Source of the DNA: Candidatus Woesearchaeota archaeon
GTDB taxonomy: Archaea > Nanobdellota > Nanobdellia > Pacearchaeales > GW2011-AR1
Assembly: GCA_964530955.1 (NCBI GenBank)
Contig: CAZHCL010000011.1
Location: forward strand, 1-24,176
Reading direction: 5' to 3'
DNA length: 24,176 bases
A program made the translations under genes and the position numbers. The stretch's first letter is position 1. The number at the start of each line of letters is the position of its first letter. Shown in pieces: positions 708 to 24,100 of the stretch. Under the pieces are notes generated by a model. It did not search any database, was not told where the DNA came from, and saw nothing but the letters and a program-made list of their open reading frames with translations.

Positions 708-2351
708 TTACTGTATGTTTATAGCATTAAGTGCTTTTCTTATTAATTCTGATTCATACGGATTGAATGTAAATGGATTGGCACCCATCACAGAATCGCC
801 ATTTGTTGTTAGAAAAGACGATCCATCGCAAGAACCTAAATAAGATCCTCCAATACTGCAATTAATGCCGATATTACAGGAAGAAGATATTGGTTCATGC
901 CCTAGTTCAACAAATTGGTTACTCCATATTTTGCTTTCACATGAAGAAGATGGTTGTGAACCGCATTGTATTTCTACTTGGTTAAGAAAATTCTGAAAAT
1001 TATTTATGCATTTACTAGTAACATTTACTCCATTACACCATTTAGTAGAAGAAAATGTATCGCAATTAATTGGAGGGACTTGAGAATTACTATAATTTAT
1101 TATATCTGATACTGGTAAAATAATATTTTGTAATGGTGCCATTGTATCATGGGCAAATCCCATGCTATGTCCAAATTCATGCGCAGCTACACGACCAACA
1201 TCGAAAAATGATAAATTTGTTGTAGAGTTTATATATTGATTTTGCGTATGGAAATCGTCAAACCACATACTCCAATTCTGAGCATAAATAGAAGATTCAA
1301 AATCCCAACCGACATTCAAATCAACAACAATAACTCTATCTATTTTCGATACATTGAGTTCTGTTTTGCATTGATCTAGTATTGTACTAGCACCCGAAAG
1401 ACAAGCAACTGGCCCAGAGCCTTCTTGCTGATTAGCAAGCTCGCAATCTAAAGATGTCGATTTGTTATAATAGTAAATATTAATTTTATCACTATACTCA
1501 TTAAGAGGAGTTATATTGAAAAAACCAGGCGCAGATTTGACTAAAGTTAATATTCCATTATCATAATCTTTTTTAGAATAGTAATATGCGTCTTCTTTTC
1601 CAAAAAATAGTTCCTTAGCTAATTTCACAAAGGTTCCATTATCAATCGTATTTTGATTAATGTTTCTATTTGGAACTACTAAAAAATTAATATTTCCATT
1701 TCCTTTTTTAATAATTTGACAATTTTTCTCTGTATGGGAAACATTCGCATTTATACATATTCCATTTTTACAACCATTAGGGCAGGTATATTCATAAGAA
1801 ATACTTCGATTATTAATGCATTCTGCTTCTAAGAGATGTCCATTATTTGAACATGTGTCGTAAGTAATTCTCTTATTGCCTGAACTATCAATCCATGTAG
1901 TATTACCTAGAATAGTATAATTCAATCCGCCGTCTGAGTCTGTACAATTAATTTTTATTGGGGGTTGCAAGCAAGCACCATTTTTACAGCCATTAATACA
2001 AGTTTCAATTATTTCATTTTTCTTATCTTGATAGCAATAGAATTCTTTGAGATTATTTGAATTCCCAAGACAGGTATCTGTATAAGTAGAAATTATATTG
2101 AAAAAGAAAAATTTATTTGTTTTAACTAATGTTCCTTGTTTAAAGAAATAAATACCATTGTCACTATCATTACAATATTTGCTATTTGGAATAGTAATAC
2201 TTTTATTATATTTAGCTTGTTGTTCGTAATTTACATCTTTTACAACAAAAGATGTGCTTTTCTTGAATAGATTATCAAATGAAAAAGCTGAAACTGTCAG
2301 TGTGGAAAGGCATAATATTCCAACTATTAAAAAAATAGTTATAAATCTCAT
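708..2351 (-). CDS. Secreted zinc metallopeptidase (metzincin motif, M64-like by resemblance) with two Cys-rich CxDSDxG repeats (547 aa)
   Basis: Signal peptide; HEFGHSMGFAH = HExxHxxGxxH at 1149-1181; possible Met-turn (DSVMGANP); repeats CNDSDNG...CINGCKNGAC and CTDSDGG...CPNGCKNGIC. Family placement is inference. Confidence 0.85.
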   Translation of the reverse strand: MRFITIFLIVGILCLSTLTVSAFSFDNLFKKSTSFVVKDVNYEQQAKYNKSITIPNSKYCNDSDNGIYFFKQGTLVKTNKFFFFNIISTYTDTCLGNSNNLKEFYCYQDKKNEIIETCINGCKNGACLQPPIKINCTDSDGGLNYTILGNTTWIDSSGNKRITYDTCSNNGHLLEAECINNRSISYEYTCPNGCKNGICINANVSHTEKNCQIIKKGNGNINFLVVPNRNINQNTIDNGTFVKLAKELFFGKEDAYYYSKKDYDNGILTLVKSAPGFFNITPLNEYSDKINIYYYNKSTSLDCELANQQEGSGPVACLSGASTILDQCKTELNVSKIDRVIVVDLNVGWDFESSIYAQNWSMWFDDFHTQNQYINSTTNLSFFDVGRVAAHEFGHSMGFAHDTMAPLQNIILPVSDIINYSNSQVPPINCDTFSSTKWCNGVNVTSKCINNFQNFLNQVEIQCGSQPSSSCESKIWSNQFVELGHEPISSSCNIGINCSIGGSYLGSCDGSSFLTTNGDSVMGANPFTFNPYESELIRKALNAINIQ

Positions 2352-3030: not shown

Positions 3031-3702
3031 TCAGATTTTATTACTTAAATGGGCAAGAATCTTTTGCTCAGCTTTTGAGAGATGGAAGTGAAGTGTTGAA
3101 GTTGAAATCCCTCTTTCTTTTGCAAGCTGTTCAAGTTTAACTTTTCTAGGATATCCATAATATCCTCTTTTTATGGCTAATGTTAAAGCATCTTTCTGTT
3201 TTTTTGTTAAATTTGGCATTGTAGAATAAATCATTAAATTTTGTACTTTTTCCTGTTTAAATTTCAGAATTTTGTATGTAAAGTTTTGAATCTTTTCACT
3301 TTTAGTAATCATATCATCAAGTATTTTCTTATCTGGAGAAGCAATTTCCCAACATTCCCATCCATTTTCATCAATAATTGCTGGCTTCAAAAATATATAG
3401 AGAGGATTATAAGATGCTTTAATTGCTTTTCCTCGCACGCTGTGTTTCTCTTCTGTATAAATGCAAATAAAATAATCCCCATTGCTTTCAAAATATGTAA
3501 CCTTCTTGTCTTTTTTCAAGTCTTCAAGGAAGGTCATCTTATTTTCTTCTTTTCCTTCAATAATTCCTGAGCCTATAAGGAATACTTTATTGCCATCTTC
3601 ATAATAATTATGACTATAAAAATAAATTTTTACTTTATGCTTTAGAGTCTTTTCTTCGTAAATATTACCTTTCTCTCTACCTTTTATCTTTAAAACCCAC
3701 AT
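3031..3702 (-). CDS. HTH_10 (bacterio-opsin activator-type HTH) transcriptional regulator (223 aa)
   Basis: C-terminal LTKKQKDALTLAIKRGYYGYPRKVKLEQLAKERGISTSTLHFHLSKAEQKIL matches the archaeal HTH_10 pattern (LT..Q...L..A...GYY..PR......LA...GIS.ST...HL..AE.K). Confidence 0.9.
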   Translation of the reverse strand: MWVLKIKGREKGNIYEEKTLKHKVKIYFYSHNYYEDGNKVFLIGSGIIEGKEENKMTFLEDLKKDKKVTYFESNGDYFICIYTEEKHSVRGKAIKASYNPLYIFLKPAIIDENGWECWEIASPDKKILDDMITKSEKIQNFTYKILKFKQEKVQNLMIYSTMPNLTKKQKDALTLAIKRGYYGYPRKVKLEQLAKERGISTSTLHFHLSKAEQKILAHLSNKI

Positions 3703-6560: not shown

Positions 6561-7481
6561 TTATACTATTTTAACTGTCCACGAACTTTCGTTCGCAGTT
6601 GAGTATGATTGTGATGTTAATTCAGCACCTGCAATTTTGATACATGGATAAAGCCTACTTTGACCTGTTCCGTTATTCAATGTTAGGTTTCCTGTTCCTA
6701 AAGTTGCTACTGCTATTCCTACAAAACCGCCTGCGCTCATATTAGTTGAAGTGCTATTGCATTCAACGGGAGGAGAACCTCCAGTGAATGTGCTTAATGA
6801 AATGTTATTTGCCCAGATTGCTTTTGTTGAATCAGTTTCTCCTCTTAGGTTTGTTCCATTAATTTGTATATTTCCTACTGTAATTGGCTTGTTTCCAGTG
6901 TTATTAAGTATCAATGGACCATTTGTAGGCGTCTGATTTTGAGAACCCGGAGCAAATGCGTTCCAGCTTAATGATCCTGGACCAAGAACGAAAGCAGAAA
7001 GCTGATTGTAGGTGAATGTTTGAGTTGTATTGTATGCATTATTTCCATAGGTATCGTTAACAGCTACTCCGATATTCCACGTTCCTGAAGTATCAAAATA
7101 CCATAAATTTACTGTGCAGGAATAATTTACATTATTTGAGTCTATATTTCCTACTTTTACGCAGGATGAATTAGATCTGACAGGATTTCCTGCTATTGTG
7201 AAGTTTGCAGTCATATTACTTAACACTGACGCTCCTGCTCCGTCGTTTGCAGTTGCGTAAAATATTATCGGCAAGAAGCTGTTTTCAGTTGGATTTTGTG
7301 CGGATGGTGCTCCAACAAAAGTAATTTTTGGAACTCCTACACTGATGTTCGTGGCCACATTTTGGCTTGTTGCTTTTCCAGTAATATCGCTCCAGAAGCT
7401 CGATGAGACAAAAGAACTAATTGTTACCAGAGTAAGGATTGACAATACAAATACAAACGTGTTCTTTTTTCCTATATTCAT
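6561..7481 (-). CDS. Secreted protein (306 aa), stand-alone paralog of the membrane-proximal domain of the 1455-aa protein
   Basis: Signal peptide; no C-terminal anchor; collinear with the 1455-aa gene at a constant 1556-nt offset and sharing the peptide ANFTIAGNPVRSNSSCVKVGNIDSNNVNYSCTVNLWYFDTSGTWNIG. Confidence 0.92.
   Translation of the reverse strand: MNIGKKNTFVFVLSILTLVTISSFVSSSFWSDITGKATSQNVATNISVGVPKITFVGAPSAQNPTENSFLPIIFYATANDGAGASVLSNMTANFTIAGNPVRSNSSCVKVGNIDSNNVNYSCTVNLWYFDTSGTWNIGVAVNDTYGNNAYNTTQTFTYNQLSAFVLGPGSLSWNAFAPGSQNQTPTNGPLILNNTGNKPITVGNIQINGTNLRGETDSTKAIWANNISLSTFTGGSPPVECNSTSTNMSAGGFVGIAVATLGTGNLTLNNGTGQSRLYPCIKIAGAELTSQSYSTANESSWTVKIV
6735..6785 (+). repeat. 51-bp perfect repeat, partner 8291-8341
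   Basis: Base-by-base identity, offset 1556. Confidence 0.9.
6857..6896 (+). repeat. 40-bp perfect repeat, partner 8413-8452
   Basis: Base-by-base identity, offset 1556. Confidence 0.9.
7068..7209 (+). repeat. 142-bp perfect repeat, partner 8624-8765
   Basis: Base-by-base identity, offset 1556. Confidence 0.95.
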
Positions 7482-7522: not shown

Positions 7523-10500
7523 TTAAACGTTCCGTTGTATTTTCACTGATTTCAAGTAAGTGCTTCTGATGTTTCTCTGGTCTCTTTGCAGCACTTTAGC
7601 GATTTCACTGTATCTCATCTGATACTGCTCTTTGCAATATTGTATTGTTGATTCCATTAATGTTCTATTTTTATTGCCGAGAATACTGATAGGTATTAAG
7701 ATTCTTGACTCTTTAATTATAATCTTGCTTGCTCTTTTTTTCTGCGCTTTTTTGTATGCAACCCATATTGTTCTCTGGTCTCTTTGCAGCACTTTAGCGA
7801 TTTCACTGTATCTCATCTTATAATTCTCTCTCAGATATTTGCATGTCGCTTCCAAAATTCCCAGTTCTCTTGAAAATATTTCAACAGGCAGAGATGCTGC
7901 TCTTGGATATTCTAATATCTGTGTTGCTTCATTTTCTGTAAGAGAATTCTTTTTTTGGAACTCTTCAATAAGAGGCTTAAGGCTTTCTTTGATTCTTTCA
8001 TTATTTTCTGATTCTGCAATCAGAATGGTTATTGCTTTAGTCAGAGGGTCATTTTCGATTTTCTTCTTTTTCTTTCTTAGCTTACTACTCATATTTCCAG
8101 TTGAGAATAGCATAACAAGGATTTTTACTGTCCAAGAGCCCTGCTGGGAAGTAGAATATGCCTGGGAGCTCAGTTCAGAACCAACAGTTCTTATGCAAAC
8201 ATACAATCTTTCCTGACCTGTTACTCCGTCATTTATGGAGTTGTTTCCTGTTGAAAGATTAGCTCCTGCTATGGATACGAATCCTCCCGTGCTCATATTA
8301 GTTGAAGTGCTATTGCATTCAACGGGAGGAGAACCTCCAGTAAATGTACTGAAAGAAATATTTTCTGCGTAAATTCCCTTGCTATTATCTGTTTCTCCAA
8401 GTAAATCAGTTGCATTAATTTGTATATTTCCTACTGTAATTGGCTTGTTTCCTGTATTGTTAAGAATTATGGGGTCATTTGTAGCAGTTTGATTTTGAAT
8501 GCCTGGAACGAGTGCATTCCAAATCAAAGAAGTTGGAGAAATTACAAATGCAGCTGTTTGTTGTAAAGTGAATGTCTGTGTTGTATTATACGCGGCATTT
8601 CCTGATGTATCATTAATGCTTATTCCGATATTCCACGTTCCTGAAGTATCAAAATACCATAAATTTACTGTGCAGGAATAATTTACATTATTTGAGTCTA
8701 TATTTCCTACTTTTACGCAGGATGAATTAGATCTGACAGGATTTCCTGCTATTGTGAAGTTTGCAATAATACTCGTGTCATTTAATTTTGCCACTCCTAA
8801 ACTATCTTGAGCTGTAAAATAAAATTTTACTGGAAGGTAACTATTTTCATTTATTGTTTGAGCGGGAATTGCATCAATATATGTTATCGCAGGAAATCCT
8901 GCATTGTCATAAAATACTACTGAAGAGGAATTTACATTTCCAGAAGTGTCATTAGCATAAATTGTCCAATTGTTTGAACCAGGATTTGCAGATAATCCTG
9001 TGACATTATTTCCGCAGGTAATTGTTGTATTTGTTGCTCCCTTGTTTAATGAATACCAACATGCCTGAAGATAGGTGTCAGAAACTGTGTAATTAAGAGC
9101 ATTAATCGTTGTGCTATAGGTCGTGTTAAGAGGATAGGTTAAGTTGATTGATGGAGATTGTTGGTCTTTTAGAGAGAAGTAGGTTGTTTGAGTGTTATTA
9201 ATATTATTTGAGGTATCATTTGCTATAAATGTAATATTATATCTTCCTAATAGGGAAGGGATAGTATATGTTGTATTAAATTTTGTCTTAAATGTTAGAT
9301 TCTTTAGCGTAAGTAATGTGCTTGTTCCATTTGGAAGAGTAATATTTGCTAATGCTGCGCTGTCTCCTCCCCCTAAATCATCGGTTACATTTGCTCCTAT
9401 TTCTATTCCTTGTGTGCTCGTATAATTTGTTGCTGCTGCAGGAATTAATCCGGTAACATTTGGAGGATTTGTATCTGTGTTGTAATTCATTACTGCTTCT
9501 AAATAATCTAGGTAAAATATGGTTGCTGCTGTTCCGGTCGTATGCGTTCTTATTACTAAAGAAGTTCCGTTGACAAGATTACTTAAACCATTGGCAGAGG
9601 TAATGTTGTAAGTTAGTGTGAAATTCTGGAAAGCTGTAGGGGAAGAAGTATTAGAGCCATTAACCATTTTCCAGGCTAGCGATGTGTAATTCCATAATGT
9701 AATATTTAATTTTTCTCCTGCAGTTCCGTTTGTAGTGGATATGGTTCTTAATGCAATGGAAGAAATGCTGCTGTAATAGGGAAGGGTAAAGTTAAACTGG
9801 AAGAAAGAATCCAATGTGGTATTTCCTACCTGGAATGAACTTGTTCCTCCACTCGTATTTAATTTTGAATATTCGGTTGATAAAAGAGGCGAGCTGAATT
9901 TAGTTGTAAGTGTATTTACAGTTAATGTTCCATTGTATCCTATTCCTGTCAAAAGATTAGGAACTAATGTTACAGAAGTTGTTGGGTCGATTATATGGTC
10001 TATTTCTAAGCTGCCTCCTGTGACTTGTAAATCAAAAGTATCTTCGCTGTCTTGTAAGTTTGTAAGATAGACTTTGTTGTAGGCATTATTCTTTATGTTT
10101 GAAAATGTGGCTATAGGAATCGTTTGATTATTTTCAAAGACAGTTATCTGTGGATTACCTGAAATAGTTTTTGGATATAAGGTAATATCATTTTTATTTG
10201 TTAGATTTTCCTGAAAAGTAACTCTGATATATTCATTGTTTTTTATTTCAGGGCTCCAGATGTTGTCAAGAGCTTTTACACTGTCATAAATATCTTCTAT
10301 GAATGTCCTATTTTCATCCAGATGTTGGGCATTTGTAACAATTATTATTTCGAATGTTTCATTGCTTAAATGAGGAGTTATCCACGAAATCTGGTCGATA
10401 TATCCATCGTTATTGCTGTCGATTGGATTAAATGAGAAATCTTGTGGAGTTCCGTTTACTATCCAGTATAATTTTATTTTATCTTGAGAATTAATTGATA

Positions 10501-11890
10501 TTTTTGTGCTGATATTAGCATAGGTTAAAACATTTCGATAGTGAAGAGAATCTGGTCCAGTTACTGTTACTATTTTATGTGTTGTATCCATTTGTGTTTC
10601 AGAAGTTGTTGGAGCAGGAGTTTCGTAAATGACATTTATGTCTGTGCTATTGTCTGCAGTAAACTCTATTATATTGTCATTCTGAACCTGAGGTAGAGAA
10701 TTAATTCCTTTTTTTGCAGGAGGATTTTTTTGCCTATATGAAAATCCGCGGCTTGCATTGTTTGCGGAAGAAATATTTTTTATTTGCGCGTTGTAGGGTA
10801 AATTTAATGAAAGCAACCCTGGTTGTCCTGCTTTTATATTTCTTATCCATTGAACTGGTTTGTTAATCTCTGCAGGAAGTTGCAAGTCAGTTTGATTTTC
10901 TATTGTTGCATTGAGAGTAATATTTTCGTTCGCAGTTGAATTATCCTGAGAGATATTATTTTGAGCTGGCAAGGAGATATTTTCAGATACATTAACATCA
11001 TTTAGATTGATCATTGAGTAAGAAATGTTGTTTAGGGATAAGAAAGCGTTATTTAATTCAACTTTAATAGGATATGAGTTTTGCGAGACATTTAGCTGAC
11101 TCAGATCGCAATTTTCTGTGCAGACTTCTAAGAAAGAATAGTTTATTGGAAAGTAGGAATAGGTTGAATTATCAATAGAGGGCTTCCCTTGGTAAGGACT
11201 TGTTTGGTTTTGGGAAGCCCCCTCTTGAATATTTGATTGCTGAGAATCGGTGATGTTTATATCTGAGGTAATAAACCCAGTCAGCAGGTTTGTTGATTGA
11301 TTTGCTTGCATATTTGAAGAAGGATTTTTTGCCTGATAATTATCCGAGTTAAAAATTAGAATATTTCCTAAATAGATTTTTACATAACCATCATTACTGG
11401 TTAGCTGAATATTTCCTGAAATTTTTACAGAGGTCAAAGTTCCGTTATTCAATGGAGTCCAAACATATGTATCTGGACTTGAAAAAGAAAGTCCAAGGGA
11501 ATCCTGATAGCTATTTTCATTCTGGTTTATTATGAACCCTGATAGCTTTGGAGAGAGATAAAAGAATGAAATGAGAAGAATCGAGATAATTAGAAAGAGG
11601 AATGCTGAATTTACAATCTTTTTTCTTGTAACATTTTTATTTTCAAGTTCTATTCTTCTTTCACATTCTTTTTCAAACCACTCATAATATTCAATCCATT
11701 CAGAGATTGTTTTTCCTTCTCTCTTTTGGGAAAGGAATTCTTTATACTCTGCAAGAGTCAGTTCTTTCTTAAGAAGAAGCTCATTTTTTTTCTGTAGGAA
11801 TTGTATTAATTGTTTTTTGTACTTATTAGAAATCTCTTTCTGCCTGGAAAGAGAGTTAATCCTATCTCTGATTAAATTAGTCCTTACCAT
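7523..11890 (-). CDS. Giant membrane-anchored surface protein (1455 aa) with Ig-like ectodomain and C-terminal tandem HTH
   Basis: About 90-aa charged N-terminal domain, TM aa 92-112, about 1150-aa sequon-rich ectodomain (DSNNDGYID Ca-binding-like motif, DT.PP Ig-like repeats), short hydrophobic stretch WTVKILVMLFS plus KLRKKKKK, then two copies of MRYSEIAKVLQRDQR in HTH-like context. Confidence 0.92.
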   Translation of the reverse strand: MVRTNLIRDRINSLSRQKEISNKYKKQLIQFLQKKNELLLKKELTLAEYKEFLSQKREGKTISEWIEYYEWFEKECERRIELENKNVTRKKIVNSAFLFLIISILLISFFYLSPKLSGFIINQNENSYQDSLGLSFSSPDTYVWTPLNNGTLTSVKISGNIQLTSNDGYVKIYLGNILIFNSDNYQAKNPSSNMQANQSTNLLTGFITSDINITDSQQSNIQEGASQNQTSPYQGKPSIDNSTYSYFPINYSFLEVCTENCDLSQLNVSQNSYPIKVELNNAFLSLNNISYSMINLNDVNVSENISLPAQNNISQDNSTANENITLNATIENQTDLQLPAEINKPVQWIRNIKAGQPGLLSLNLPYNAQIKNISSANNASRGFSYRQKNPPAKKGINSLPQVQNDNIIEFTADNSTDINVIYETPAPTTSETQMDTTHKIVTVTGPDSLHYRNVLTYANISTKISINSQDKIKLYWIVNGTPQDFSFNPIDSNNDGYIDQISWITPHLSNETFEIIIVTNAQHLDENRTFIEDIYDSVKALDNIWSPEIKNNEYIRVTFQENLTNKNDITLYPKTISGNPQITVFENNQTIPIATFSNIKNNAYNKVYLTNLQDSEDTFDLQVTGGSLEIDHIIDPTTSVTLVPNLLTGIGYNGTLTVNTLTTKFSSPLLSTEYSKLNTSGGTSSFQVGNTTLDSFFQFNFTLPYYSSISSIALRTISTTNGTAGEKLNITLWNYTSLAWKMVNGSNTSSPTAFQNFTLTYNITSANGLSNLVNGTSLVIRTHTTGTAATIFYLDYLEAVMNYNTDTNPPNVTGLIPAAATNYTSTQGIEIGANVTDDLGGGDSAALANITLPNGTSTLLTLKNLTFKTKFNTTYTIPSLLGRYNITFIANDTSNNINNTQTTYFSLKDQQSPSINLTYPLNTTYSTTINALNYTVSDTYLQACWYSLNKGATNTTITCGNNVTGLSANPGSNNWTIYANDTSGNVNSSSVVFYDNAGFPAITYIDAIPAQTINENSYLPVKFYFTAQDSLGVAKLNDTSIIANFTIAGNPVRSNSSCVKVGNIDSNNVNYSCTVNLWYFDTSGTWNIGISINDTSGNAAYNTTQTFTLQQTAAFVISPTSLIWNALVPGIQNQTATNDPIILNNTGNKPITVGNIQINATDLLGETDNSKGIYAENISFSTFTGGSPPVECNSTSTNMSTGGFVSIAGANLSTGNNSINDGVTGQERLYVCIRTVGSELSSQAYSTSQQGSWTVKILVMLFSTGNMSSKLRKKKKKIENDPLTKAITILIAESENNERIKESLKPLIEEFQKKNSLTENEATQILEYPRAASLPVEIFSRELGILEATCKYLRENYKMRYSEIAKVLQRDQRTIWVAYKKAQKKRASKIIIKESRILIPISILGNKNRTLMESTIQYCKEQYQMRYSEIAKVLQRDQRNIRSTYLKSVKIQRNV
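7573..7620 (+). repeat. 48-bp perfect repeat encoding the HTH core, partner 7771-7818
   Basis: TTCTCTGGTCTCTTTGCAGCACTTTAGCGATTTCACTGTATCTCATCT at both positions, 198 nt (66 codons) apart. Confidence 0.95.
8624..8765 (+). repeat. 142-bp perfect repeat, partner 7068-7209
   Basis: Base-by-base identity. Confidence 0.95.
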
Positions 11891-11959
11891 TACTTATTAT
11901 ATATGTAAAATAAGCTTATAAAAGTTGTTATTTAACATAAAATACTTATTATATATGTA
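11891..11959. repeat. 17-bp direct repeat TACTTATTATATATGTA at 11891-11907 and 11943-11959 in the divergent promoter region
   Basis: Identical copies 52 bp apart; the first abuts the ATG of the 1455-aa gene; TGTTA-TT-TAACA palindrome (11926-11937) lies between them. Confidence 0.75.
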
Positions 11960-12029: not shown

Positions 12030-12050
12030 TTTAAATATGTGTTAACACAT
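12030..12050 (+). promoter_or_regulatory. TATA box TTTAAATA (12030-12037) plus 14-bp palindrome ATGTGTTAACACAT (12037-12050), likely antitoxin operator
   Basis: Perfect palindrome between the TATA box and the probable start at 12067. Confidence 0.65.
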
Positions 12051-12066
12051 GTATACACAGAACAAT

Positions 12067-12297
12067 ATGGTGAATATAACTTTGACCGTTCCAGATGAAT
12101 TAAAGAAGAAATTGCAAAGTCATCCAGAGGTTAATTGGAGCGCTGTAATCCGCAAGTCTATGCAGGAGCATCTGAAAAAAATAGCTATAGCTGAAGCAAT
12201 TGCCCAGAAAAGTCAGCTAACAGAATTTGATGCAGAGGAAATAGGCAACTTAATAAAAAGAGAGATTGCTAAAAGACATGGAATAAACAAGGCTTAA
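12067..12297 (+). CDS. vapB: Ribbon-helix-helix (CopG/VapB-like) antitoxin; probable start 12067 (ORF track gives 12049)
   Basis: MVNITLTVPDELKKKLQSHPEVNWSAVIRKSM is an RHH pattern; 3 nt upstream of a PIN gene; TATA spacing favours ATG 12067. Confidence 0.8.
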   Translation: MVNITLTVPDELKKKLQSHPEVNWSAVIRKSMQEHLKKIAIAEAIAQKSQLTEFDAEEIGNLIKREIAKRHGINKA

Positions 12298-12300
12298 TTT

Positions 12301-12723
12301 ATGAAATTAGTTATAGATACAAATATTATAATTGCTGCTATGGTGAAAGATGGACTGGCAAGAAAAATAATCTTTTTTGGAAATGTCGATTTAATATCTC
12401 CTGAATTTACTATGGAAGAAGTATATAAACACAGAGATATCATACTCGACAAGGCTCATTTTACTGAGGAAGAATTCAGAATCTTATTTTTGACTATTTT
12501 AGGCAGAGTTAAGATAATCCCCAAATCCAGATATATCTCTTTTTTAAGGGAAGCCGATAGTTTGATTGGAAAAATAGATTATAAAGATGTGCCTTTTCTT
12601 GCTCTTTCTTTGGCCGTAAGAAATGATGGAGTCTGGAGCGATGATAAACATTTCAAAAAACAGAACAAAATCAGGGTTTTAACTACAAAAGAAATAATAG
12701 GTAGCATTCAAAAAATTTCTTGA
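12301..12723 (+). CDS. vapC: PIN-domain ribonuclease toxin (VapC-like)
   Basis: MKLVIDTNIII start; acidic tetrad candidates D6, E(TMEE), D(YKDVPFLAL), D(WSDDKHF). Confidence 0.92.
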   Translation: MKLVIDTNIIIAAMVKDGLARKIIFFGNVDLISPEFTMEEVYKHRDIILDKAHFTEEEFRILFLTILGRVKIIPKSRYISFLREADSLIGKIDYKDVPFLALSLAVRNDGVWSDDKHFKKQNKIRVLTTKEIIGSIQKIS

Positions 12724-15183: not shown

Positions 15184-18100
15184 ATGGTGCATAAAAGGTT
15201 TATCAAAAAAGGTGGTAAAAGTTATGGTCCCTATTACTACGAAAGCTACAGAGAAGATGGAAAGGTAAAGAAAAAATATATTGGGACAAGTCCTCAAAAA
15301 AATAATTTTAGCGTTGATTTTTCCCAAATTAAATCAGTTACTCCACAAATTTTAATTGTTCTTTTAATCATTGCTGTTGCTTATTTTGGTGTTTCGCATT
15401 TCATTACTGGGAAAGCAATAAGTGATGGAACATCAGCAGATAATTCTGCTCAGCAAAATTCTGTTGACCAGAATAATGCACCTGCAGACACTACAGGAAA
15501 TTCTGCAACTTCTGCTCAGAGTTCTGACAGCAATTCTGGAAGTTCGGATTCTGGAAATCTGACAACTGGTGGAACTGCTGATACAACAACTTCTCCAGCA
15601 AATTCAGATTCTGGTTCAACTGGTCAAGGAACAGCAACAAATGGAGCAACAGATAACTCTTCAAATCAGCAACAAGAGCAGGCTCCCGTTTCTCAAGAAA
15701 ATAATACGCCTACTAATCAAACAGTCAATGTTCCAGAAGAAAATTCATCTTTGAATCAAACTATTACTAATCAAACTATTCCAAATGAAACAATAATAAA
15801 CCAAACTATAACTAATGAAACTTCTGCAAATAATGAGTCAAATCTAACTTTGCCTAATCAGACAATTGTTAATCAAACTTTAACAAATGAAACTTTTTCA
15901 AATAATACAATAATTAATGAAACACTGACAAATCAAACAGCCGTAAATGAAACAATAATAAACCAAACTATTACTAATCAGACTCAGGTAAATTTAACGC
16001 TTGAAAACTTGAGCATACTGGCAGTAATTCCAACTATAAGGATTGCTGCAAATGGTAGTGCGCAGGTAACATTATCTGATTATTTTTCTGGGGCTGAAAG
16101 TTATTCTTTCAATGCTCTAAATATCAGCTCTGCAATAAATGGTGATGTTTTGACTTTGACTCCTGATTCTGGATTTAGGGGAGCGAGGAAAGGAACAATA
16201 ACTGCTTATTCAGGAAACGATTCTTTGCAGAGTAATAGTTTTGACATATTTGTTTCTTCAGGAGCAATAAATATTCAGACAATAAGAAACAAGATAAAAC
16301 TTGGAGAGCCTGTTAAATGGACTAAGAACGTAACTCTTGACAATCCTCAACAGCTTTCTCTTGAATTGCCTAGTGATGCGAGCAACATAACTGTAACTAA
16401 AACTGATTCCTCGCAAGGCTCTAGTTCAAAGAGTATTACAGGAAACGTTATATCTGATTCCAATGGCAATAAAAAATCATTAAGCTTTTTAGATAGATTA
16501 TTTAATTTTTTCAGGCTTTTCCTTCTTACTGGAAGAGCAATTTCAGATACTTCCCAAAATCAGGACATAGCAAATAATACTACAAATGCCACTATTCAGG
16601 TTACTCTTAATGATAATGCAACCCAATACACTGTTGAATATACAACTCCTTCTCCAGTTTCAACTGAAAAAGATATCTTGGGAGGGAAACAAATGTCTAT
16701 TTCTGCTCCTGAAGAATTAAACTACACTGATGTAATTGCTAATACAAATATTTCTGATGCAAGCAAGATTGCTGATGCAGGAACAATAAAGATTTATTGG
16801 CATAATTATGATCCTGCAGCTGTTCAGGCTGCGGAAGATAAAGATGCTGCTGCTTTGCAGGCATTGAAAGAGCAGGCAAAGCAAGTCTCTGAAGTTGCAA
16901 ATTCTACCGTAGTTGAGGATGTCAATCTTGGAAGCAATGAAACACTTCCAACAGTAATTAACTCTACATTTGATAATGCAACTTCTGATTTAGGTAATGT
17001 TACAGATAATAGCACAGCAGATAATTTCTCTTCAAATGTATCTTCAAGTATTTTGACAGGAAATGCAATTCTTGATGGTGATGTTGCAAATTCAACAGCC
17101 ATAGAAAATATGACTAATGATAGCAATGTAACAGACAACGCAACATTAAATGCAACTAATAATACTAACGTAGGTGTAAGCACAAGCGTTCTTACAGATG
17201 CCAATGGAGGAAAGTATATTCTTCAGGAAGTTCCATTTGATGCCTATGATACAAACGGAGATGGGAATATTGATTATGTTGAATGGGTAGTTCCTCACTT
17301 TTCAAACCAGACCTATGATATAATATTAATCAGTAAGGCAGAGCATCTTGATGAAAATAAGACTTTCATTGAGGATGTTTATACTCAGGTTCAAGCTTTA
17401 GATAATGTAACTGCTGAAATACCTGCAGGAGATTACTTAAGAGTAAGTTTCCAGCAGAACTTGACAAACAAGAACGATATTACTTTCTACGGAGCAAGCA
17501 ATTCAACTGATAACTCAAGCTCAACAATAGAGGTTTATGAGAAAGACCAAAACAGAACTATCGCATTATTTGATAACGTAAGCTCTTTCAACAAATATAG
17601 AATAACTTTGGATAATTTAAGCAGTGATGATAATTATTCTCAAGGCACTTTTGATTTGCTGATTAAAGGTAATCCAGTTGACTTTGACTATGTTGTTGAC
17701 CCTTACACAGATACGGGTGCTTTGGCCCAGAATGTCAATGATTGCGGAATATTGAATACTAGTAATGCGGTTTATACATTAATTAATAACGTAAGCACAA
17801 CATCTACTTGCTTCAATATAACTGCCAATAATATAACTTTTAATGGAGCTGGATTTACGGTCAATTATTCAAGTGTAGGCGCAACTTCAGATAGTGGCTT
17901 TTCTATCAGTGGTTACAATTTTACTACGGTAAAGAATACGAAGTTTTTATTTTCATCTATTACTACTCCTAATACTGGGATTGCATTCCTTTTGGCAGGA
18001 TCAAACAATGGAACTTATGTTAATGATACTTTTTTAAGGACAATTCAGGGCACTGCTCCTTTCTTTTCTTTATCATCTTCATCACAAAATAATATAAGTT

Positions 18101-21100
18101 ATAATTTCGCCTTTGGTAACGGGTATACGAATCAATTTATTAATGATTTCGGTTCAGGTTCGCTTAATATTCTTGCTAATAATAATATAACTTATTCAGG
18201 AGCTAATTCGGCTGCCGGAATTCGTTTAGCAGCTGGAGGGCAAAATCAAATATTCAATAATCAACTTTATTCAACAGAAAGTTTAAGTCCATATGCGATA
18301 TTTTTAATAAATGGAAATGATGGGTCTATTATATATAATAATAGTATAACTCTTACCGGTGGATCTGGAGGAGCGATTACAACTCAAGGTGCAAATAATA
18401 TTACTATGTTCAATAACACTATAAATTGCCTTGCGACTGCTACTGGAATTAGCATAGGAACATCAACAAATATTACTCTTTCACAAAATCTACTTAATAC
18501 AACTCAAGGCTTAGGAATTATTGTTTCAGGAACAGCTATTAATCAGCTAAACCAGACAATTGACTCTTTAAACTTAGCCGAAGGACTGCCCGTAAATTAT
18601 ACTTTTGGATTAAATAATTCTCTTATTCAGAATATAAATAGTTCTACCTATGGGCAGATAATCTGTGCATCTTGTAATAATGTAACTTATAATAATATTA
18701 CTATGTATAATGTCGATGGAATTTCATTGATTAATTCAACTAGTATGGTTGTAAATAATTCTAATTTTACTTCTAACAGAGGATATGGTGTATACATAAC
18801 TGCTGGAGCAAATAACATTACGGTTTCAAATAATAATATCTATGAATATCTGAATGCTAATTTATACGGTGTTTACACTGGCTGGACTTCTAATACGGTT
18901 ATACCCAATAATATTTATATAACTGGAAATAACATTACTTATAATACTAGTGCTAGTGCTAGTGGTGGCTCGGTTTACTTTACTGCTCCCATTACTAACT
19001 CCATTGTTAGTAATAATAACTTATCGGTCAGAGGTTCTGGTACAAAATATGGATTCTATTTGGCTCAGCCCTCTGTAATAGCGAATAACATTTCTATTTT
19101 GTCTAATATCTTTTCTACTGGAGGCATAGAGATGAGCGGGGGTGCTCCCAATAGTGTTTTTGATAACAATCAGCTTAATAATATCAGTGTTCCATATGCT
19201 TTTGATTTTTCTGGTATCTTTGATAACGATACAATAACTAACAATCGTATAACCAGCGCCAATAGTGCTCGTGTTATTGATTTTAGGGGGGGTGCTGCTT
19301 CAGGTCTTTATGTTGCTAACAACACGATTACTACTATTGCAGATATTCCTGCTATGTATGTTGAAAGTGCAATCACAAATAGTAGGTTCATAAATAACAC
19401 TATTACTTCTGTTGCGACTACCCAAAATCCTTTTACTTTTGGTGTGGCTGGAAATTCAAACGTTACTTTCACTGGACTGAAAATTTATGGGAGCGTTAGC
19501 AATGCTATTGATAGTTTTAAGGTTGCTTTTGCAAGTAATTTCACAATGACTGACAGTGTATTAAATACTTCATCAACCCATAGTGCTTTTTTAATCAGTA
19601 ATTCTGTTCCTTGGGGATATTGGAATTTCACAAATGTAACTGAAGCAGATGGAACTCCTATTAATATTTCTTGGGGCGGGGGAGCGAATGGAACTGCAAA
19701 TAATATATATTATCTTGATGCAAACGCAAGCTATCCAACGGGAACGCCAGCGGTCAGTGCTAACATAACTGGATATAGAAATGATGGCCTCCTTTGGTTT
19801 AGTAATCTTACTGACTCAAATGGATTAATTCAAAGGCAGACTGTATTGCAATATAAACTTACAAACAACTCTGCAGGAAGTAGTGTTTATACATGGTATT
19901 CTAATTATACTGTGAATGGAACTGATGTTTATGGAAATGGAGACGCTCATTCTATCAATATCACGGGAAATATGGTGGGTTCAAGTGCAGTTACATTAAG
20001 CTTTGTTAATCTGACTAGTGGATGTGTAAATATATCTAATCCAAATGCTTATATTTTACTTACTGCGAATATAACTTCAACTGGAACTTGTCTTACAGTG
20101 CTTGCGAATAATGTAACTATTGACGGGGGAGGATATACAATTAATTATTCTAGCGCTGGTGGTTCAATAGGATACGGAATTAATGTCACTAATTATAATT
20201 TTACAACAATAAAAAATGTCAAAATTACTGAAGGGACTTCGACGACTAATAGTAAGCCAGCGATATCTTTATCAAATGCATACAATGTAACCATACAAAA
20301 TAATACTCTCTTAACGAGCGGTCTGTTTTCAGATGGAATTGATATGGCTAATAATAAATATGCCCTTATCACAGGTAATATTATTAATACAACTACTGGA
20401 GGTGCTAGTTCTGGAGGTTATGCAGTATTTATGAGCTGTAGTAGTACTAACCATAATATTTCAGGTAATTCGATATTTACTTCGAGCAATGGAAATAGCA
20501 TACGTTCTATATACGGTAGTTGTGGTGTCAGTGGAGGAAATAATCTCTTCATTGGATATAATAATATAAGTTCATATGACTATCAAATTTATGTTCATTC
20601 TGGTAACACTATAATTGGAAACAATTTAACTGATGCTGCTCCATCTGGTGCAAGAGGATTCTCAATTGATTCGAATAATATTCTGATTAATAATTCTTGG
20701 TCTATTCCAAATGCATATGATACTTTTGCATATCCATTTCAAATAACTGCGGGTAATAATACTCTTACTGGAAATAAATTTTCTGACCCTAATGTTATTA
20801 CTTTCACTTTGACTGGAACAACTTTGGCGAATCTTAATAATACCTTAGACTCTTCAAACTTAATAGGCGGTATTCCAATTAATTTTTCATTTGCACTGAA
20901 TAATGCAGTTATTCAAAATGCCAACAGTTCGACATATGGCTCTATATTTTGCGTATATTGTAATAATGTTACTTATAATAACATCACCATGTTCAATGGA
21001 GATGGAATATACTTGATTAATTCATCCAACTCAGTTGTAAGTAATTCTAATTTAACAACCAATAAGGGGTTTGGAGTATACATTTCTGTTAACGGGTTTA

Positions 21101-24100
21101 ATAATACTGTTGTAAATAATACTATTGCTACAAAAACAAACAATTTATTGTATGGTGTTTATTCATCTTCTTCTAATTATACTAGTGTTATTGGGAACAA
21201 CATTACTACAAGTACGACTGGTTCATCTGCCGTCTCTTTAACTACTTCTTTATTTGGAATTATTAACAATAATAATATTACCGCAACAGGCTCTGGGACT
21301 GGGCTGTATGGTTTGGGAATTAGTTTACTTACAGCATCAAATAATAACACTATGAGTGGGAATATTATAAAGACCACGAGTTCTGCAGCTCCGCCTATCT
21401 TTTTATCCTCTTCAAATAATAATATTGTCTTAAACAATTCATTGACTTCTACAGGTACTAATGGATTTGGAGTAGATATACAATCGTCTTCCAACAACAG
21501 CATTATAAATAATACTATATCTTGTTCTAATAGCAATTCAGCAGGCATTTTGTCTCAGGGTGTATCTACAAATGATAGAAATGTACTTACTAATAATTCA
21601 ATAGCAATGATGGGTATTCAGTCATACGGAATACAACTTTTACAATCAAGTAGCAACACCATCAGTCAAGGTTCAATAAGAGTTAGTTCAATTGCACAGA
21701 ATGGAATTTATATTCAATCTAGTACTAATGATTTGATTTCAGGTGTTAATGTAATAATCAATTCTACTTCTGGAACGGGAGCTATTCAGACTAGCGGTTC
21801 GAGTAGTTTTTTCATTAATGATTCATACTTAAACTCTTCAAATTCAGCAACTGGTGAGTTTTACATATCTGCTGGAGTTGCTTCAGGAACTTGGAATTTC
21901 ACAAATGTAAGTCGCTTAAATGGTGGTCTTATTAATGTCACTTGGACTGGTGGTTCAAAGGGTACTTTGAATTATATGTGGTGGGTAAGTGCGAATACAA
22001 CTGTGAATCAGACGAAAGGTCCTTTGGCGGGAGTAAATGTGAGTGCTTGGAATGTGAACAATGTCAGTATGTTTAGCGAGATATCTGGCAGTTTGGGGAA
22101 TATTTCTAGTTATCCTTTACTTCAGTATACGATGACAAATAACAGTGCTGGAGGTACTGTAACTACATATTATTCGCCTTATACCCTTAATGCAACAAAG
22201 AGCGGTTATAATACTTATTCAAATGCAACTATTAATTTGACTACAAATTATCTTGTAAATGCAGGATTGTTCGACATTGTTCCTACATTGCAGTTTGTAT
22301 CTCCAACTGATACAGATAGTTCTAATCTAACTAGAAACAATATATTTGCAAACGTTAGTGTGACTGATACTACATTTGTAAATGTAACTCTTAATCTTTA
22401 TAATGCGACAAGCAATGCATTAGTTAATAGCACAACTTCAACAAGTCCTATTTATTATGTTAACTTTATTGGTCTCGGTGATGGCACTTATTATTTAAAT
22501 GCAACTGCTGCTGACTTGGCTGGAACTCTAAACTCAACTGAAACTAGAAGGATTACCGTGGATACGGTCATGCCTACGATAAATGTAACCTCTCCTTTAG
22601 CCCAGAATTATACTACAAATAATATTACAATTAATTTCACTTCTGCTGACTTTAATGGAATAAGTGCCCGATGGTTTTACAATGGAACTACAAATATTAC
22701 ATATTCTGGGGTAACAAGTGTTATTGCGCCTGAGGGCAGTAACAATTTTACATTTTATTCAAATGATACTTTCGGTAATTTGAATTCTACTTCAGTTACT
22801 TTCTTTGTTGACTCCATAATTCCGCTAATACAGTTTGTATCTCCTACAGATACAAATGCTTCTCAGCTTTCTCGTAGTAATATATTAGTAAATGTAACTG
22901 CTTCAGATACCAATTTAAAAAATATTACTATATTTCTTTACAATTCAACTAATAATTTAATTAACACTACAATTAGCACAACATCTCCTTCATATATTAA
23001 CTATGTCGGTCTTTTAGATGGGAATTATTCCTTCAATTCTACGGTTTATGATACTCTTGGAAATAAAAATAGTACTGAGACTAGAACGATAACTCTTGAT
23101 ACAATTGGACCTAATATAACAATAAATTATCCTTTAAATACTACAACGCACTTTTCTGCAGTAATATCATTCAATGCAACTGCGATTGATTTGCAAAGAG
23201 GAATTTCTTCATGTGTTTACAGCCTTGATAATGTAGCGAATGTAACTATGAGCGCATTGAATACAACATTCTTTAATTATTCTTATTCTGGAATAGGTCA
23301 TGGATTGCATAATGTTACTGTTTCATGTAATGATACATTGAATAACTGGAATTCTGCTTCAATGTATAATTTCAATGTAAACTTGCTTGACTTGACTATC
23401 CATAGTGTCACTTTGACTAATCCAGTATACCCTAATTCAACTTTAATATCTATTAATGTATCAAATGATGGTGCGCCTAATGCAACGAACATAAATGTAA
23501 GCTGTTATCTTGATAATGTTTTGTTTGATTCTTCTTTAATAAGCCAGATAAATGGCGGGCAGGATTACATTACCAATTGTACGAGAACGTTTTATTCAGG
23601 AAACTTCACATTAAATGTAACTCTTGACCCTCTAAATGTAATTCCTGAAAGCAATGAGACTAATAACGCCAATATAACTACTGTAAACGCAGTTGTTGCA
23701 ATAAGAAATGAAAGTCATAATGGACTGATAACTTCATTGCAGACAGTTAATTATAATGAAAATGTAAACTTGACTTTGAATATTCCAAATGGAACAATAA
23801 ATACGACCCGTGCGGGATATAATTTGAGTGCTGTTTGGGCAAACATTACTTTACCTAATGGAGCAATAAATAAACTCTACCTATCTGGAAATAGTGCTGG
23901 AGGAATATGGAATGCTACCTATATCGCTTCAACATTGCTTGGAAATTATTCAGTTGTTTATTCTGCGAATCTTACAAATGGATTTAACTTTGTTCAGAAT
24001 GTTACAACCAGTTTCATTGTTAAAAATACCTCTATAAGTATTGTTGCTTCTCAAAGTGTAAACACGACAAATATAATCCCTATATCTGGTTTGATTAGAT

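What the first reader, a model, noticed from the sequence alone, without database searches (positions are those of the whole stretch)
7523..8134. Giant surface protein ending in a twin-HTH domain: possible giant transmembrane one-component regulator
Seen: where the paralog stops (SWTVKIV*), the 1455-aa protein continues in frame LVMLFSTGNMSSKLRKKKKK, then a helical linker and two HTH-like repeats (LEATCKYLRENYKMRYSEIAKVLQRDQRTIWVAY; MESTIQYCKEQYQMRYSEIAKVLQRDQRNIRSTY). Known: ToxR/CadC-type regulators link a small sensor to a cytoplasmic HTH through a TM. Inference: an about 1150-aa adhesin-like ectodomain is coupled to DNA binding, so it could sense host contact or fibre assembly, or tether the chromosome to the membrane. 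Caveat: the second hydrophobic stretch is short (about 11-17 aa, includes a Lys), so cytoplasmic location of the HTH is not certain; proteolytic release or an extracellular DNA-binding role are alternatives.
Basis: partly seen in the sequence, partly recalled or inferred. Interest (0 to 1): 0.82.

Follow-up and report, generated by a model that had tools for sequence, protein, structure and literature searches.

The report
Surface giant with DNA-binding tail
A 1455-residue cell-surface protein of a tiny DPANN archaeon really does end in two DNA-binding (helix-turn-helix) modules. Matching DNA boxes sit only at its own promoter, so it most likely controls its own production from the membrane, a design I found in no paper.

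Summary
ORF 7523-11890 (-) is one uninterrupted 1455-aa frame. Its order is: a conserved ~90-aa basic N-terminal domain, a clear TM helix, a ~1140-aa acidic sequon-rich ectodomain ending in ...SWTVK, 13 uncharged residues, KLRKKKKK, a helical linker, and two HTH modules.

The fusion is not an artefact. The same tail lies in long open frames in 37 of 151 genomes of the order, and a profile finds 2270 protein clusters, including free-standing twin-HTH proteins.

AlphaFold (pLDDT 91) folds each repeat as a sigma-70 region 4 / LuxR-type HTH.

New here: two identical 17-bp boxes (TACATATATAATAAGTA) flank the TATA box of the gene's own promoter, the second abutting the ATG. They are the only two such sites in the 761-kb assembly. 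They recur at the same positions in distant orthologues, and related boxes precede free-standing twin-HTH genes.

Best reading: a membrane-tethered autoregulator of a surface-protein operon.

Weak point: the second hydrophobic stretch is far too short for a canonical TM (family median 9 residues), and AlphaFold predicts no helix there. The tail's cytoplasmic location is therefore inferred, and any sensing role is untested.

This scan has already reported the same design on other DNA (e1-2801546, e1-1360380, e1-4486377, e1-979279). No paper describing it was found.

The parts
7523..11890 (-). Whole gene: 1455-aa surface protein with a C-terminal twin-HTH tail
   Evidence: Single open frame. Orthologous fused frames of 1100-4500 aa occur in 37 of 151 genomes of the order.
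11943..11959 (-). Box 1 (TACATATATAATAAGTA), at -69..-53 from the ATG, upstream of the TATA box
   Evidence: Exact 17-nt direct repeat of box 2 at 52-bp spacing. It is one of only two matches in the 761-kb genome and is conserved in orthologous promoters.
11915..11922 (-). TATA box TTTATAAG at -32..-25 from the ATG (implies a leaderless or near-leaderless mRNA)
   Evidence: Read from the sequence. This column block is conserved in the alignment of 13 orthologous promoters. The position rule for archaeal TATA boxes is general knowledge.
11891..11907 (-). Box 2 (TACATATATAATAAGTA), at -17..-1, abutting the start codon, between the TATA box and the expected transcription start
   Evidence: The same position holds in orthologues.
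11618..11890 (-). N-terminal ~91-aa basic helical domain (cytoplasmic), unnamed
   Evidence: Conserved in full-length homologues. Net charge +8 and 1 sequon. With this query it was found only in ORFs that also carry the tail, or in ORFs cut by a contig end. No Pfam hit.
11552..11617 (-). TM1, signal-anchor helix (aa 92-113, IVNSAFLFLIISILLISFFYLS)
   Evidence: Kyte-Doolittle 19-residue window 2.58 at aa 92-110. The same position is seen in many homologues.
8123..11551 (-). Ectodomain (aa 114-1256): acidic and rich in N-glycosylation sequons. The last ~260 aa form two Ig-like beta-sandwiches paralogous to the 306-aa gene.
   Evidence: Aa 114-1258 hold 68 N-x-S/T sequons (5.9 per 100 aa) and a net charge of -35. 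AlphaFold model of aa 1000-1455 has pLDDT 86. Foldseek hits are generic Ig-like and fimbrial adhesin folds.
8084..8122 (-). Short uncharged/hydrophobic stretch ILVMLFSTGNMSS (aa 1257-1269): putative minimal stop-transfer segment
   Evidence: The junction W-x-[IV]-[KR]-[IVL] + 6-13 uncharged residues (median 9) + poly-K/R is conserved in 106 distinct sequences. It is not scored as a TM, and residues 1261-1271 have pLDDT below 50.
8060..8083 (-). Polybasic cluster KLRKKKKK (aa 1270-1277)
   Evidence: 6-11 K/R within the 12 residues after the hydrophobic stretch in all 106 junctions.
7898..8059 (-). Helical linker (aa 1278-1331), three to four helices
   Evidence: AlphaFold tail model, helices at tail residues 2-13, 16-30, 32-48 and 53-60. 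It aligns with the N-terminal part of free-standing twin-HTH proteins.
7736..7894 (-). HTH module 1 (aa 1333-1385; LPVEIF strand + three helices; recognition helix RDQRTIWVAYKKAQKK)
   Evidence: Matches include NarL 1je8 (Z 5.9, rmsd 2.5 over 57) and M. tuberculosis sigma-H 5zx2 (Z 5.9, rmsd 2.8 over 53).
7529..7699 (-). HTH module 2 (aa 1398-1454; IPISIL strand + three helices; recognition helix RDQRNIRSTYLKSVK)
   Evidence: Matches include sigma-28 1rp3 (Z 5.6, rmsd 0.8 over 48), sigma-E r4 on -35 DNA 2h27 (rmsd 0.8 over 48) and archaeal EnfR 8hno (Z 5.6, rmsd 1.1 over 49).
6561..7481 (-). Downstream 306-aa secreted paralogue of the giant's membrane-proximal domains, ending SWTVKIV*; probably co-transcribed
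   Evidence: It is 71% identical to aa 1000-1455 over the shared part. The 41-nt gap to the giant's stop contains GGGT shortly before the ATG.

Best explanation
The gene encodes one polypeptide with both ends in the cytoplasm and a ~1140-residue glycosylated, adhesin-like loop outside the cell. The N-terminal TM helix starts export. A conserved minimal stop-transfer element, about 9-13 uncharged residues followed by 6-11 Lys/Arg, halts it. This leaves a ~185-residue basic tail inside, made of a helical linker and two sigma-70-region-4/LuxR-type HTH modules. The tail binds the two 17-bp boxes (TACAyAnAnrATArGTA) that flank the TATA box of the gene's own promoter. Box 2 fills the space between the TATA box and the start codon, so occupancy should block TBP/TFB/RNA polymerase. 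The protein therefore represses itself once enough copies sit in the membrane, along with the probably co-transcribed small surface-protein genes downstream. Holding the promoter at the membrane may also help co-translational insertion of the giant. Shown: the continuous frame, conservation of the architecture, the HTH fold, and the uniqueness and conservation of the boxes. Inferred: the tail is cytoplasmic, the tail is what binds the boxes, and the effect is repression.
For: (1) The fusion is real. There is no stop in the frame. The tail lies in long open frames in 37 of 151 genomes of the order, usually once per genome. Forty-nine large database proteins carry it at the very C-terminus.
(2) The junction is stereotyped in 106 distinct sequences.
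(3) The fold is an HTH. The AlphaFold model has pLDDT 91.4. The structural neighbour list is dominated by sigma region 4 and LuxR/NarL HTH domains, several solved on DNA, at rmsd 0.8-2.8 A over 48-57 residues. The nearly invariant columns fall largely in the recognition helices (R..RTIW..Y and RDQRN..Y).
(4) Topology is supported by composition. Sequon density is 5.9 per 100 aa in the ectodomain against 0.5-1.1 in the N-domain and tail. Net charge is -35 against +8 and +19. The same pattern holds in 17 orthologues. Of 35 free-standing relatives shorter than 260 aa that start with Met, 33 have no TM-like segment.
(5) The target is specific. The box pattern occurs exactly twice in the own genome, both at this promoter. 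A weight-matrix scan gives 25.7 bits for each against 13.5 for the next best site. This genome has only one twin-HTH.
(6) There is a phylogenetic footprint. Thirteen orthologous promoters share box 1, the TATA box and box 2 with fixed spacing, while the flanks are unconserved. The proteins themselves are only 23-45% identical. A LamG-type member shows the same layout.
(7) Boxes co-occur with the gene. Nineteen of 37 genomes with the tail have the exact pattern against 7 of 114 without. Of those 7, three are genes cut by a contig end or a frameshift, one is a remnant pair, and three are singletons at the level of the control pattern.
(8) Free-standing twin-HTH genes carry related multi-copy boxes upstream, for example CTTACATAATAAGTA. 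The box therefore travels with the HTH module, not with the giant.
Against: The second hydrophobic segment is far below canonical TM length. No 19-residue window reaches the threshold here, or at the junction of most of the 48 large homologues checked, whereas TM1 scores 2.58. AlphaFold gives pLDDT below 50 and no helix for residues 1261-1271. Translocon studies put such lengths at the lower limit of integration: 9-10 Leu are inserted, but mixed Leu/Ala needs at least 13 (PMC4796907). Pfam scores for this protein are under the gathering cut-off. HTH2 here has Arg where the family has Trp in the recognition helix (RNIRSTY vs RNIWTIY). No binding, transcript or proteomic data exist. The direction of regulation is inferred from box position alone. 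Conserved boxes could in principle be bound by another factor.
Confidence: 0.55

Rival explanations
1. Release by cleavage (Notch/SREBP/anti-sigma-like). The tail is held at the membrane only until host contact, mechanical load or fibre assembly triggers cleavage at or near the short hydrophobic/polybasic junction. The freed ~22-kDa twin-HTH protein then acts on the boxes like the free-standing family members.
For: The freed fragment would match the size and layout of free-standing homologues (160-200 aa, same helical linker). The junction is strongly conserved yet too short for a normal TM, which fits a recognition or processing element. The genome encodes a site-2 protease and two rhomboids.
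Against: Those proteases were found in all 14 control genomes, so they say little. No cleavage motif is known and no fragment data exist. In a cell this small a tethered regulator could plausibly reach the chromosome, as membrane-bound regulators such as ToxR and CadC do (general knowledge).
Confidence: 0.2
2. The HTH-like repeats are protein-binding modules, as sigma region 4 is when it binds anti-sigma factors. They could dock the giant to a cytoplasmic partner or to its own N-terminal domain. The promoter boxes would then be read by another factor.
For: The N-terminal ~90-aa domain and the tail occur together in the same ORFs, so an intramolecular cytoplasmic assembly is plausible. Many top structural matches are sigma/anti-sigma complexes.
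Against: The best conserved residues lie largely in the recognition helices. The boxes accompany free-standing twin-HTH genes that lack the giant and the N-domain. The genome has one tail and exactly one boxed promoter.
Confidence: 0.1
3. The tail is exported with the rest of the protein because no real stop-transfer occurs. It acts outside the cell, binding extracellular or host DNA or acidic surface polymers.
For: The hydrophobic stretch is too short for a canonical TM and AlphaFold predicts none. DPANN archaea are thought to scavenge nucleic acids (general knowledge).
Against: A conserved run of 6-11 Lys/Arg follows directly. The tail is depleted in sequons and strongly basic, like the N-terminal cytoplasmic domain. 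Free-standing relatives have no signal peptide or TM. Specific boxes in its own promoter make no sense for an extracellular domain.
Confidence: 0.07
4. Artefact: an assembly error, frameshift or lost stop codon joins two separate genes.
For: The paralogue stops exactly where the tail begins. Free-standing twin-HTH genes exist, one of them translationally coupled to a 5173-aa giant.
Against: The same in-frame fusion, with the same junction, is seen in dozens of independent assemblies. There is no conserved internal Met at the junction. In the coupled case the gene order is the reverse (HTH first).
Confidence: 0.02

Closest known systems
Bacterial transmembrane one-component transcription regulators (ToxR, TcpP, CadC)
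   Same: One polypeptide joins an extracytoplasmic domain to a DNA-binding domain on the other side of the membrane, and the regulator reads promoters while membrane-bound (general knowledge).
   Different: Those proteins have an N-terminal OmpR-type winged helix, one canonical TM and a small periplasmic sensor. This one has a C-terminal tandem sigma-r4/LuxR-type HTH, two membrane passes (the second atypically short), a ~1140-aa glycosylated adhesin-like ectodomain, and apparently only its own promoter as target.
ArnR / ArnR1 of Sulfolobus acidocaldarius (PMC6396743)
   Same: Archaeal membrane-bound transcription factors that control genes for cell-surface structures by binding their promoters.
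   Different: No sequence relationship to ArnR/ArnR1 was detected with the tools used. The paper abstract read here describes regulators of other genes (flaB, aapF, upsX), with no ectodomain of this kind mentioned. Those proteins are regulators only and are not themselves the surface structure.
Sigma-70 region 4 / LuxR-GerE HTH domains, and the archaeal Tfx-type regulator EnfR (PDB 8HNO; PMC10570040)
   Same: Each repeat has the same three-helix fold (Z 5-5.9, rmsd 0.8-2.8 A) with weak sequence similarity.
   Different: There is no sigma region 2 and no receiver or ligand domain, and no other Pfam domain (including a Tfx C-terminal domain) was hit. Two or four modules stand in tandem, each preceded by a conserved IPxxIF strand.
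Membrane-tethered transcription factors released by regulated proteolysis (Notch, SREBP/ATF6; bacterial anti-sigma systems)
   Same: A large extracellular part is coupled to a transcription regulator across the membrane.
   Different: No evidence of cleavage here. The effector is a direct DNA binder fused in cis, not an anti-sigma factor.
Giant surface proteins of DPANN archaea (e.g. SPEARE proteins of Nanohaloarchaeota)
   Same: Very large, fast-evolving, multi-domain surface proteins in host-dependent nano-archaea, clustered with other surface genes.
   Different: This comparison rests on an earlier scan note and my own knowledge; the paper was not read here. I know of no DNA-binding cytoplasmic tail or self-targeting promoter boxes described for them.

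Membership tests
Unnamed DPANN twin-HTH family (2270 clusters) | Two tandem modules with IPxxIF ... LxxLE..KYLKE ... YSEIA..L.R..RTIW..Y | tested here: met
   Alignment A1. The tail matches homologues at E 1e-58 to 1e-10.
Unnamed DPANN twin-HTH family, fused (giant-tail) form | Junction W-x-[IV]-[KR]-[IVL] + 6-13 uncharged residues + poly-K/R, with the tail at the very C-terminus | tested here: met
   WTVK-ILVMLFSTGNMSS-KLRKKKKK here, compared with 106 distinct junctions.
Unnamed DPANN twin-HTH family, fused (giant-tail) form | Conserved ~90-aa N-terminal domain followed by a TM at about residues 92-110 | tested here: met
Unnamed DPANN twin-HTH family, fused (giant-tail) form | Two TACAyAnAnrATArGTA boxes flanking the TATA box of the gene's own promoter, ~52 bp apart, the second abutting the ATG | tested here: met
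Sigma70_r4_2 (PF08281) / LuxR-type HTH | Pfam score at or above the gathering cut-off | tested here: not met
   23.7 bits against a cut-off of 25.7 (E 3.6e-5, two stretches). PF08281 is listed among the precomputed Pfam hits of many homologues, though marked 'faint' where the call gives a mark.
Sigma70_r4_2 (PF08281) / LuxR-type HTH | Three-helix HTH fold that superposes on solved region 4 / LuxR domains | tested here: met
   Z 5.0-5.9, rmsd 0.8-2.8 A over 48-57 residues for both modules. This family dominates the neighbour list. Foldseek local probability is 0.99 for 2h27 and 8jzt. The Z values are modest because the domains are small.
Bacterial sigma factors | Region 2 (core-binding and -10 recognition) present | tested here: not met
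   No other sigma region was found by Pfam in the 1455-aa protein. That archaea use TBP/TFB rather than sigma factors is general knowledge.
ToxR/CadC-type transmembrane regulators | N-terminal OmpR/PhoB-type winged-helix DNA-binding domain | tested here: not met
   No such Pfam hit. The DNA-binding modules are C-terminal and of the sigma-r4 type.
ToxR/CadC-type transmembrane regulators | A membrane-spanning segment separates the sensor from the DNA-binding domain | tested here: inconclusive
   There are 13 uncharged residues followed by a polybasic run. No TM is called by hydropathy and AlphaFold gives no helix. Charge and sequon asymmetry nonetheless support opposite sides of the membrane.
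ToxR/CadC-type transmembrane regulators | Binds promoter DNA while membrane-bound and responds to an external signal | not testable with these tools
   Needs EMSA or footprinting, localisation and physiology.
Tfx family (EnfR) | N-terminal HTH plus a Tfx C-terminal domain | tested here: not met
   The HTH superposes (8hno, Z 5.6, rmsd 1.1 over 49). Sequence similarity is only E 0.12-0.14, and Pfam hit no other domain in the protein.

The most novel reading that the evidence does not exclude
The giant is a contact or load sensor. Binding of the ectodomain to a host cell, or its incorporation into a surface fibre together with the free 306-aa paralogue, changes the state of the cytoplasmic tail through clustering, release from its own N-terminal domain, or cleavage at the conserved short junction. 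That switches the surface operon on or off. This would be a Notch-like, single-protein line from the cell surface to a promoter in an archaeal episymbiont. The unusual 6-13-residue membrane-crossing element would be a new type of stop-transfer or processing signal.
Probability: 0.15. Interest if true: 0.9.

Novelty: new variant of a known kind. Interest (0 to 1): 0.7.

Why it matters
DPANN archaea live attached to other cells. Their giant surface proteins are the prime candidates for host recognition, yet how these genes are controlled is unknown, and transcription factors in these genomes are largely unannotated. This finding gives a large unnamed family (over 2000 clusters), a specific predicted operator and a simple testable circuit: a surface protein that carries its own regulator. 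If the tail works from the membrane, it is a new architecture for membrane-tethered transcription control in archaea. It would also be a case where a structural protein counts itself. The conserved 6-13-residue hydrophobic plus polybasic junction is also a natural test case for how short a membrane-retention signal can be.

Tried and rejected
- A lost stop codon relative to the paralogue is rejected. The DNA diverges right after the codons for WTVKI, not by one base.
- A separate tail protein made from an internal start is rejected. M1267 is not conserved at the junction in homologues. I saw no TATA-like element or box in the 200 nt upstream of it. The sigma-70-type promoter scan is not informative for archaea.
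- Whole-model Foldseek of the tail gave no hit at E <= 0.001. Only local per-module matches were usable, so VIA-align was run as well.
- A profile search against PDB sequences gave only weak hits: sigma-H 3mzy at E 0.024 and EnfR at E 0.12.
- A wider regulon was looked for. No further box of 14 bits or more exists in the 761-kb assembly, which is 82.7% complete, so other targets cannot be excluded.
- Covariation between recognition helices and divergent boxes was examined (L025-L027). There were too few cases to judge.
- The seven box hits in genomes without the tail were checked one by one. None is a clean counter-example. G065 carries an unexplained remnant pair.
- Five literature searches found no description of this architecture.
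- DeepTMHMM or Phobius were not available. A Kyte-Doolittle scan and AlphaFold were used instead.
Full report
**Observation.** The window (GC about 33%; contig 11 of a 761-kb, 82.7%-complete genome) carries ORF 7523..11890 on the minus strand. It is 1455 codons with no stop. The next gene downstream (6561..7481, 306 aa) is a paralogue of the giant's last ~260 ectodomain residues and ends ...SWTVKIV*. The two DNA sequences diverge right after the WTVKI codons, so this is not a one-base stop loss. The two HTH cores share 48 identical nucleotides.

**Is the fusion real?** Yes.
- A database search with the 189-aa tail found 74 proteins of similar length. Some are free-standing 160-200-aa proteins that start with Met. 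Others are contig-truncated fragments that contain the same '...WT[VI][KR]I + short hydrophobic + poly-K/R' junction.
- The search among longer proteins found 49 proteins of up to 1917 aa. All carry two (sometimes one or four) HTH modules within about 420 residues of the C-terminus, behind varied ectodomains (LamG, beta-helix, Ig-like, FG-GAP).
- In 151 genomes of the same order, 37 carry the tail. Nearly all are in open frames of 1100-4500 aa, and usually there is one copy per genome.
- A profile search of 1.84 billion cluster representatives found 2270 hits, 1414 of them at E <= 1e-30. The forms are free-standing twins, ~300-370-aa double twins, and C-terminal tails of giants of up to 5919 aa.

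**Anatomy.**
- Residues 1-91 form a basic helical domain that is conserved among full-length relatives.
- Residues 92-113 are a canonical TM (hydropathy 2.58).
- Residues 114-1256 are acidic (net -35) and carry 68 N-x-S/T sequons (5.9 per 100 aa). The N-domain and tail have 1.1 and 0.5 per 100 aa and net charges of +8 and +19. Seventeen orthologues show the same asymmetry.
- AlphaFold of residues 1000-1455 (pLDDT 86) gives two Ig-like beta-sandwiches whose last strand is WTVK. It then gives a low-confidence stretch at residues 1261-1271 and helices from residue 1268 onward. Foldseek finds only generic Ig-like and fimbrial adhesin folds for the sandwiches.
- The tail alone (pLDDT 91.4) consists of a helical linker and two three-helix modules, each preceded by a short strand (IPxxIF).

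**The HTH fold.** Pfam scores are just under threshold (Sigma70_r4_2 at 23.7 vs 25.7 bits). The structural neighbours of both modules are sigma region 4 domains, LuxR/NarL/GerE domains and the archaeal Tfx-type regulator EnfR. The sigma examples are sigma-E r4 on -35 DNA, sigma-28, SigF and M. tuberculosis sigma-H. Values are Z 5.0-5.9 and rmsd 0.8-2.8 A over 48-57 residues (local Foldseek probability 0.99). The nearly invariant columns of the family lie largely in the recognition helices.

**The likely DNA target.** I tested this.
- Upstream of the ATG lie two identical 17-nt boxes, TACATATATAATAAGTA, at 11943-11959 and 11891-11907, 52 bp apart.
- A TTTATAAG TATA box lies at -32..-25 between them. 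Box 2 therefore fills the interval between the TATA box and a start that is probably leaderless.
- The degenerate pattern TACAYANANRATARGTA occurs exactly twice in the whole assembly, both times here. The control pattern gives 0 hits in this genome.
- A weight matrix gives 25.7 bits for each box against 13.5 for the next best site.
- The promoters of 13 orthologues align with box 1, a half-box, the TATA box and box 2 conserved at fixed spacing, while everything further upstream is unconserved. The proteins are only 23-45% identical.
- A LamG-type member from another assembly shows three boxes around the same TATA box.
- Across the order, 19 of 37 tail-bearing genomes have the exact pattern, against 7 of 114 without the tail. 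Three of those seven are genes cut by a contig end or a frameshift, one is a remnant pair, and three are singletons, comparable to the 8 control hits. Related genomes are not independent, so no statistical test is claimed.
- Free-standing twin-HTH genes in other DPANN contigs carry related multi-copy boxes upstream, for example CTTACATAATAAGTA four times. One such gene is translationally coupled to a 5173-aa surface giant. The box follows the HTH module.

**Mechanism.** This genome has one twin-HTH and one boxed promoter. The simplest model is autoregulation, in which tails of membrane-inserted copies bind the boxes. Box 2 should exclude the pre-initiation complex, giving negative feedback on the giant and on the probably co-transcribed downstream surface genes. 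Tethering the promoter at the membrane may additionally favour co-translational insertion. These steps are inferred.

**The weak point.** The second hydrophobic element is only 13 uncharged residues here, and 6-13 (median 9) in 106 distinct junctions. It is always followed by 6-11 Lys/Arg within 12 residues. Neighbouring surface proteins have 20-22-residue C-terminal anchors. Hydropathy does not call it a TM and AlphaFold models no helix. Translocon work shows that 9-10 leucines can integrate while mixed sequences need about 13 (PMC4796907), so this is at the limit. Its strict conservation suggests a dedicated minimal stop-transfer or processing signal. The cytoplasmic location of the tail rests on the polybasic run, the charge and sequon asymmetry, soluble free-standing relatives (33 of 35 without any TM-like segment) and the promoter boxes. 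It does not rest on a predicted helix.

**Rivals.**
- Release by cleavage fits the size of free-standing relatives. The conserved junction and the presence of S2P and rhomboid proteases also fit, though those enzymes are universal.
- A protein-binding role would fit the strict co-occurrence of the N-terminal domain and the tail.
- An extracellular role and an assembly artefact are both unlikely.

**Comparison and novelty.** Functionally the protein resembles membrane-bound one-component regulators such as ToxR/CadC, and archaeal ArnR/ArnR1 (PMC6396743). It fails their defining features: the type and position of the DNA-binding domain, and the topology. The fold of each module belongs with sigma-r4/LuxR/Tfx HTHs. 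No paper describing this architecture was found. Within this scan the same design was already reported on other genomes. This window adds an independent case with two perfect boxes that are unique in the genome.

**Verdict.** This is a new variant of a known kind, with interest 0.7.

Noticed in passing
window 7573-7620 vs 7771-7818 (within the 84-nt repeat 7573-7656 / 7771-7854): The two HTH cores are identical over 48 nt (MRYSEIAKVLQRDQR), whereas in relatives HTH1 and HTH2 differ. This looks like recent intragenic gene conversion between the two modules.
   Followed up: partly
window 6561-7481 vs 8117-8893: The 306-aa secreted paralogue is 71% identical to the giant's two membrane-proximal beta-sandwiches, with long near-identical protein stretches. 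This suggests gene conversion between neighbouring genes. The paralogue has no anchor and may assemble onto the giant.
   Followed up: partly
window 12049-12723 (+); P0097 contig: An 82-aa and a 140-aa gene are transcribed divergently from the giant's promoter. I read them as an RHH/PIN pair but did not scan them. An RHH_12/PIN_2 pair sits in the same divergent position upstream of the homologous giant P0097 in another metagenome, so the neighbourhood may be conserved.
   Followed up: no
window 11618-11890 (-): The ~90-aa N-terminal cytoplasmic domain (MGRT.LAKA...ISY..Y.E...GR.I.EWI.YYD.YI..C) has no Pfam match. With this query it was found only in ORFs that also carry the twin-HTH tail, which suggests the two cytoplasmic ends work together.
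   Followed up: partly
L030 (G065:C3, boxes at about 35646-35696): In a genome where the tail was not found, a pair of boxes only 34 bp apart with a TATA box between them precedes a 40-codon ORF starting MGR. It is possibly a decayed remnant of the giant's promoter and start.
   Followed up: partly
L002-L006 (P0034 contexts): A free-standing twin-HTH gene overlaps by a few bases a downstream gene for a SLFN_AlbA_2 + HATPase_c_4 protein and follows an AbiEii gene. The module therefore also heads operons unrelated to surface proteins.
   Followed up: no
window 15184-24174 (+): A second giant surface protein (over 2997 aa, open at the window end) shares the mid-region block '...AEHLDENKTFIEDVY...NLTNKNDIT.Y' with the 1455-aa protein. 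It has a different N-terminus (KRFIKKGGKSYGPYYYESYREDGKVKKKYIG before the TM), and its promoter has no boxes.
   Followed up: no
window 3031-3702 (-): A 223-aa protein has a clear C-terminal HTH_10 domain (E 1.8e-19). It is the only other confidently recognised regulator in the part of the window that was scanned.
   Followed up: no
window 708-2351 (-): A 547-aa secreted, Cys-rich protein has a weak metallopeptidase signature (HEFGHSMGFAH; Peptidase_M10 at E 7.5e-4, below the cut-off).
   Followed up: no
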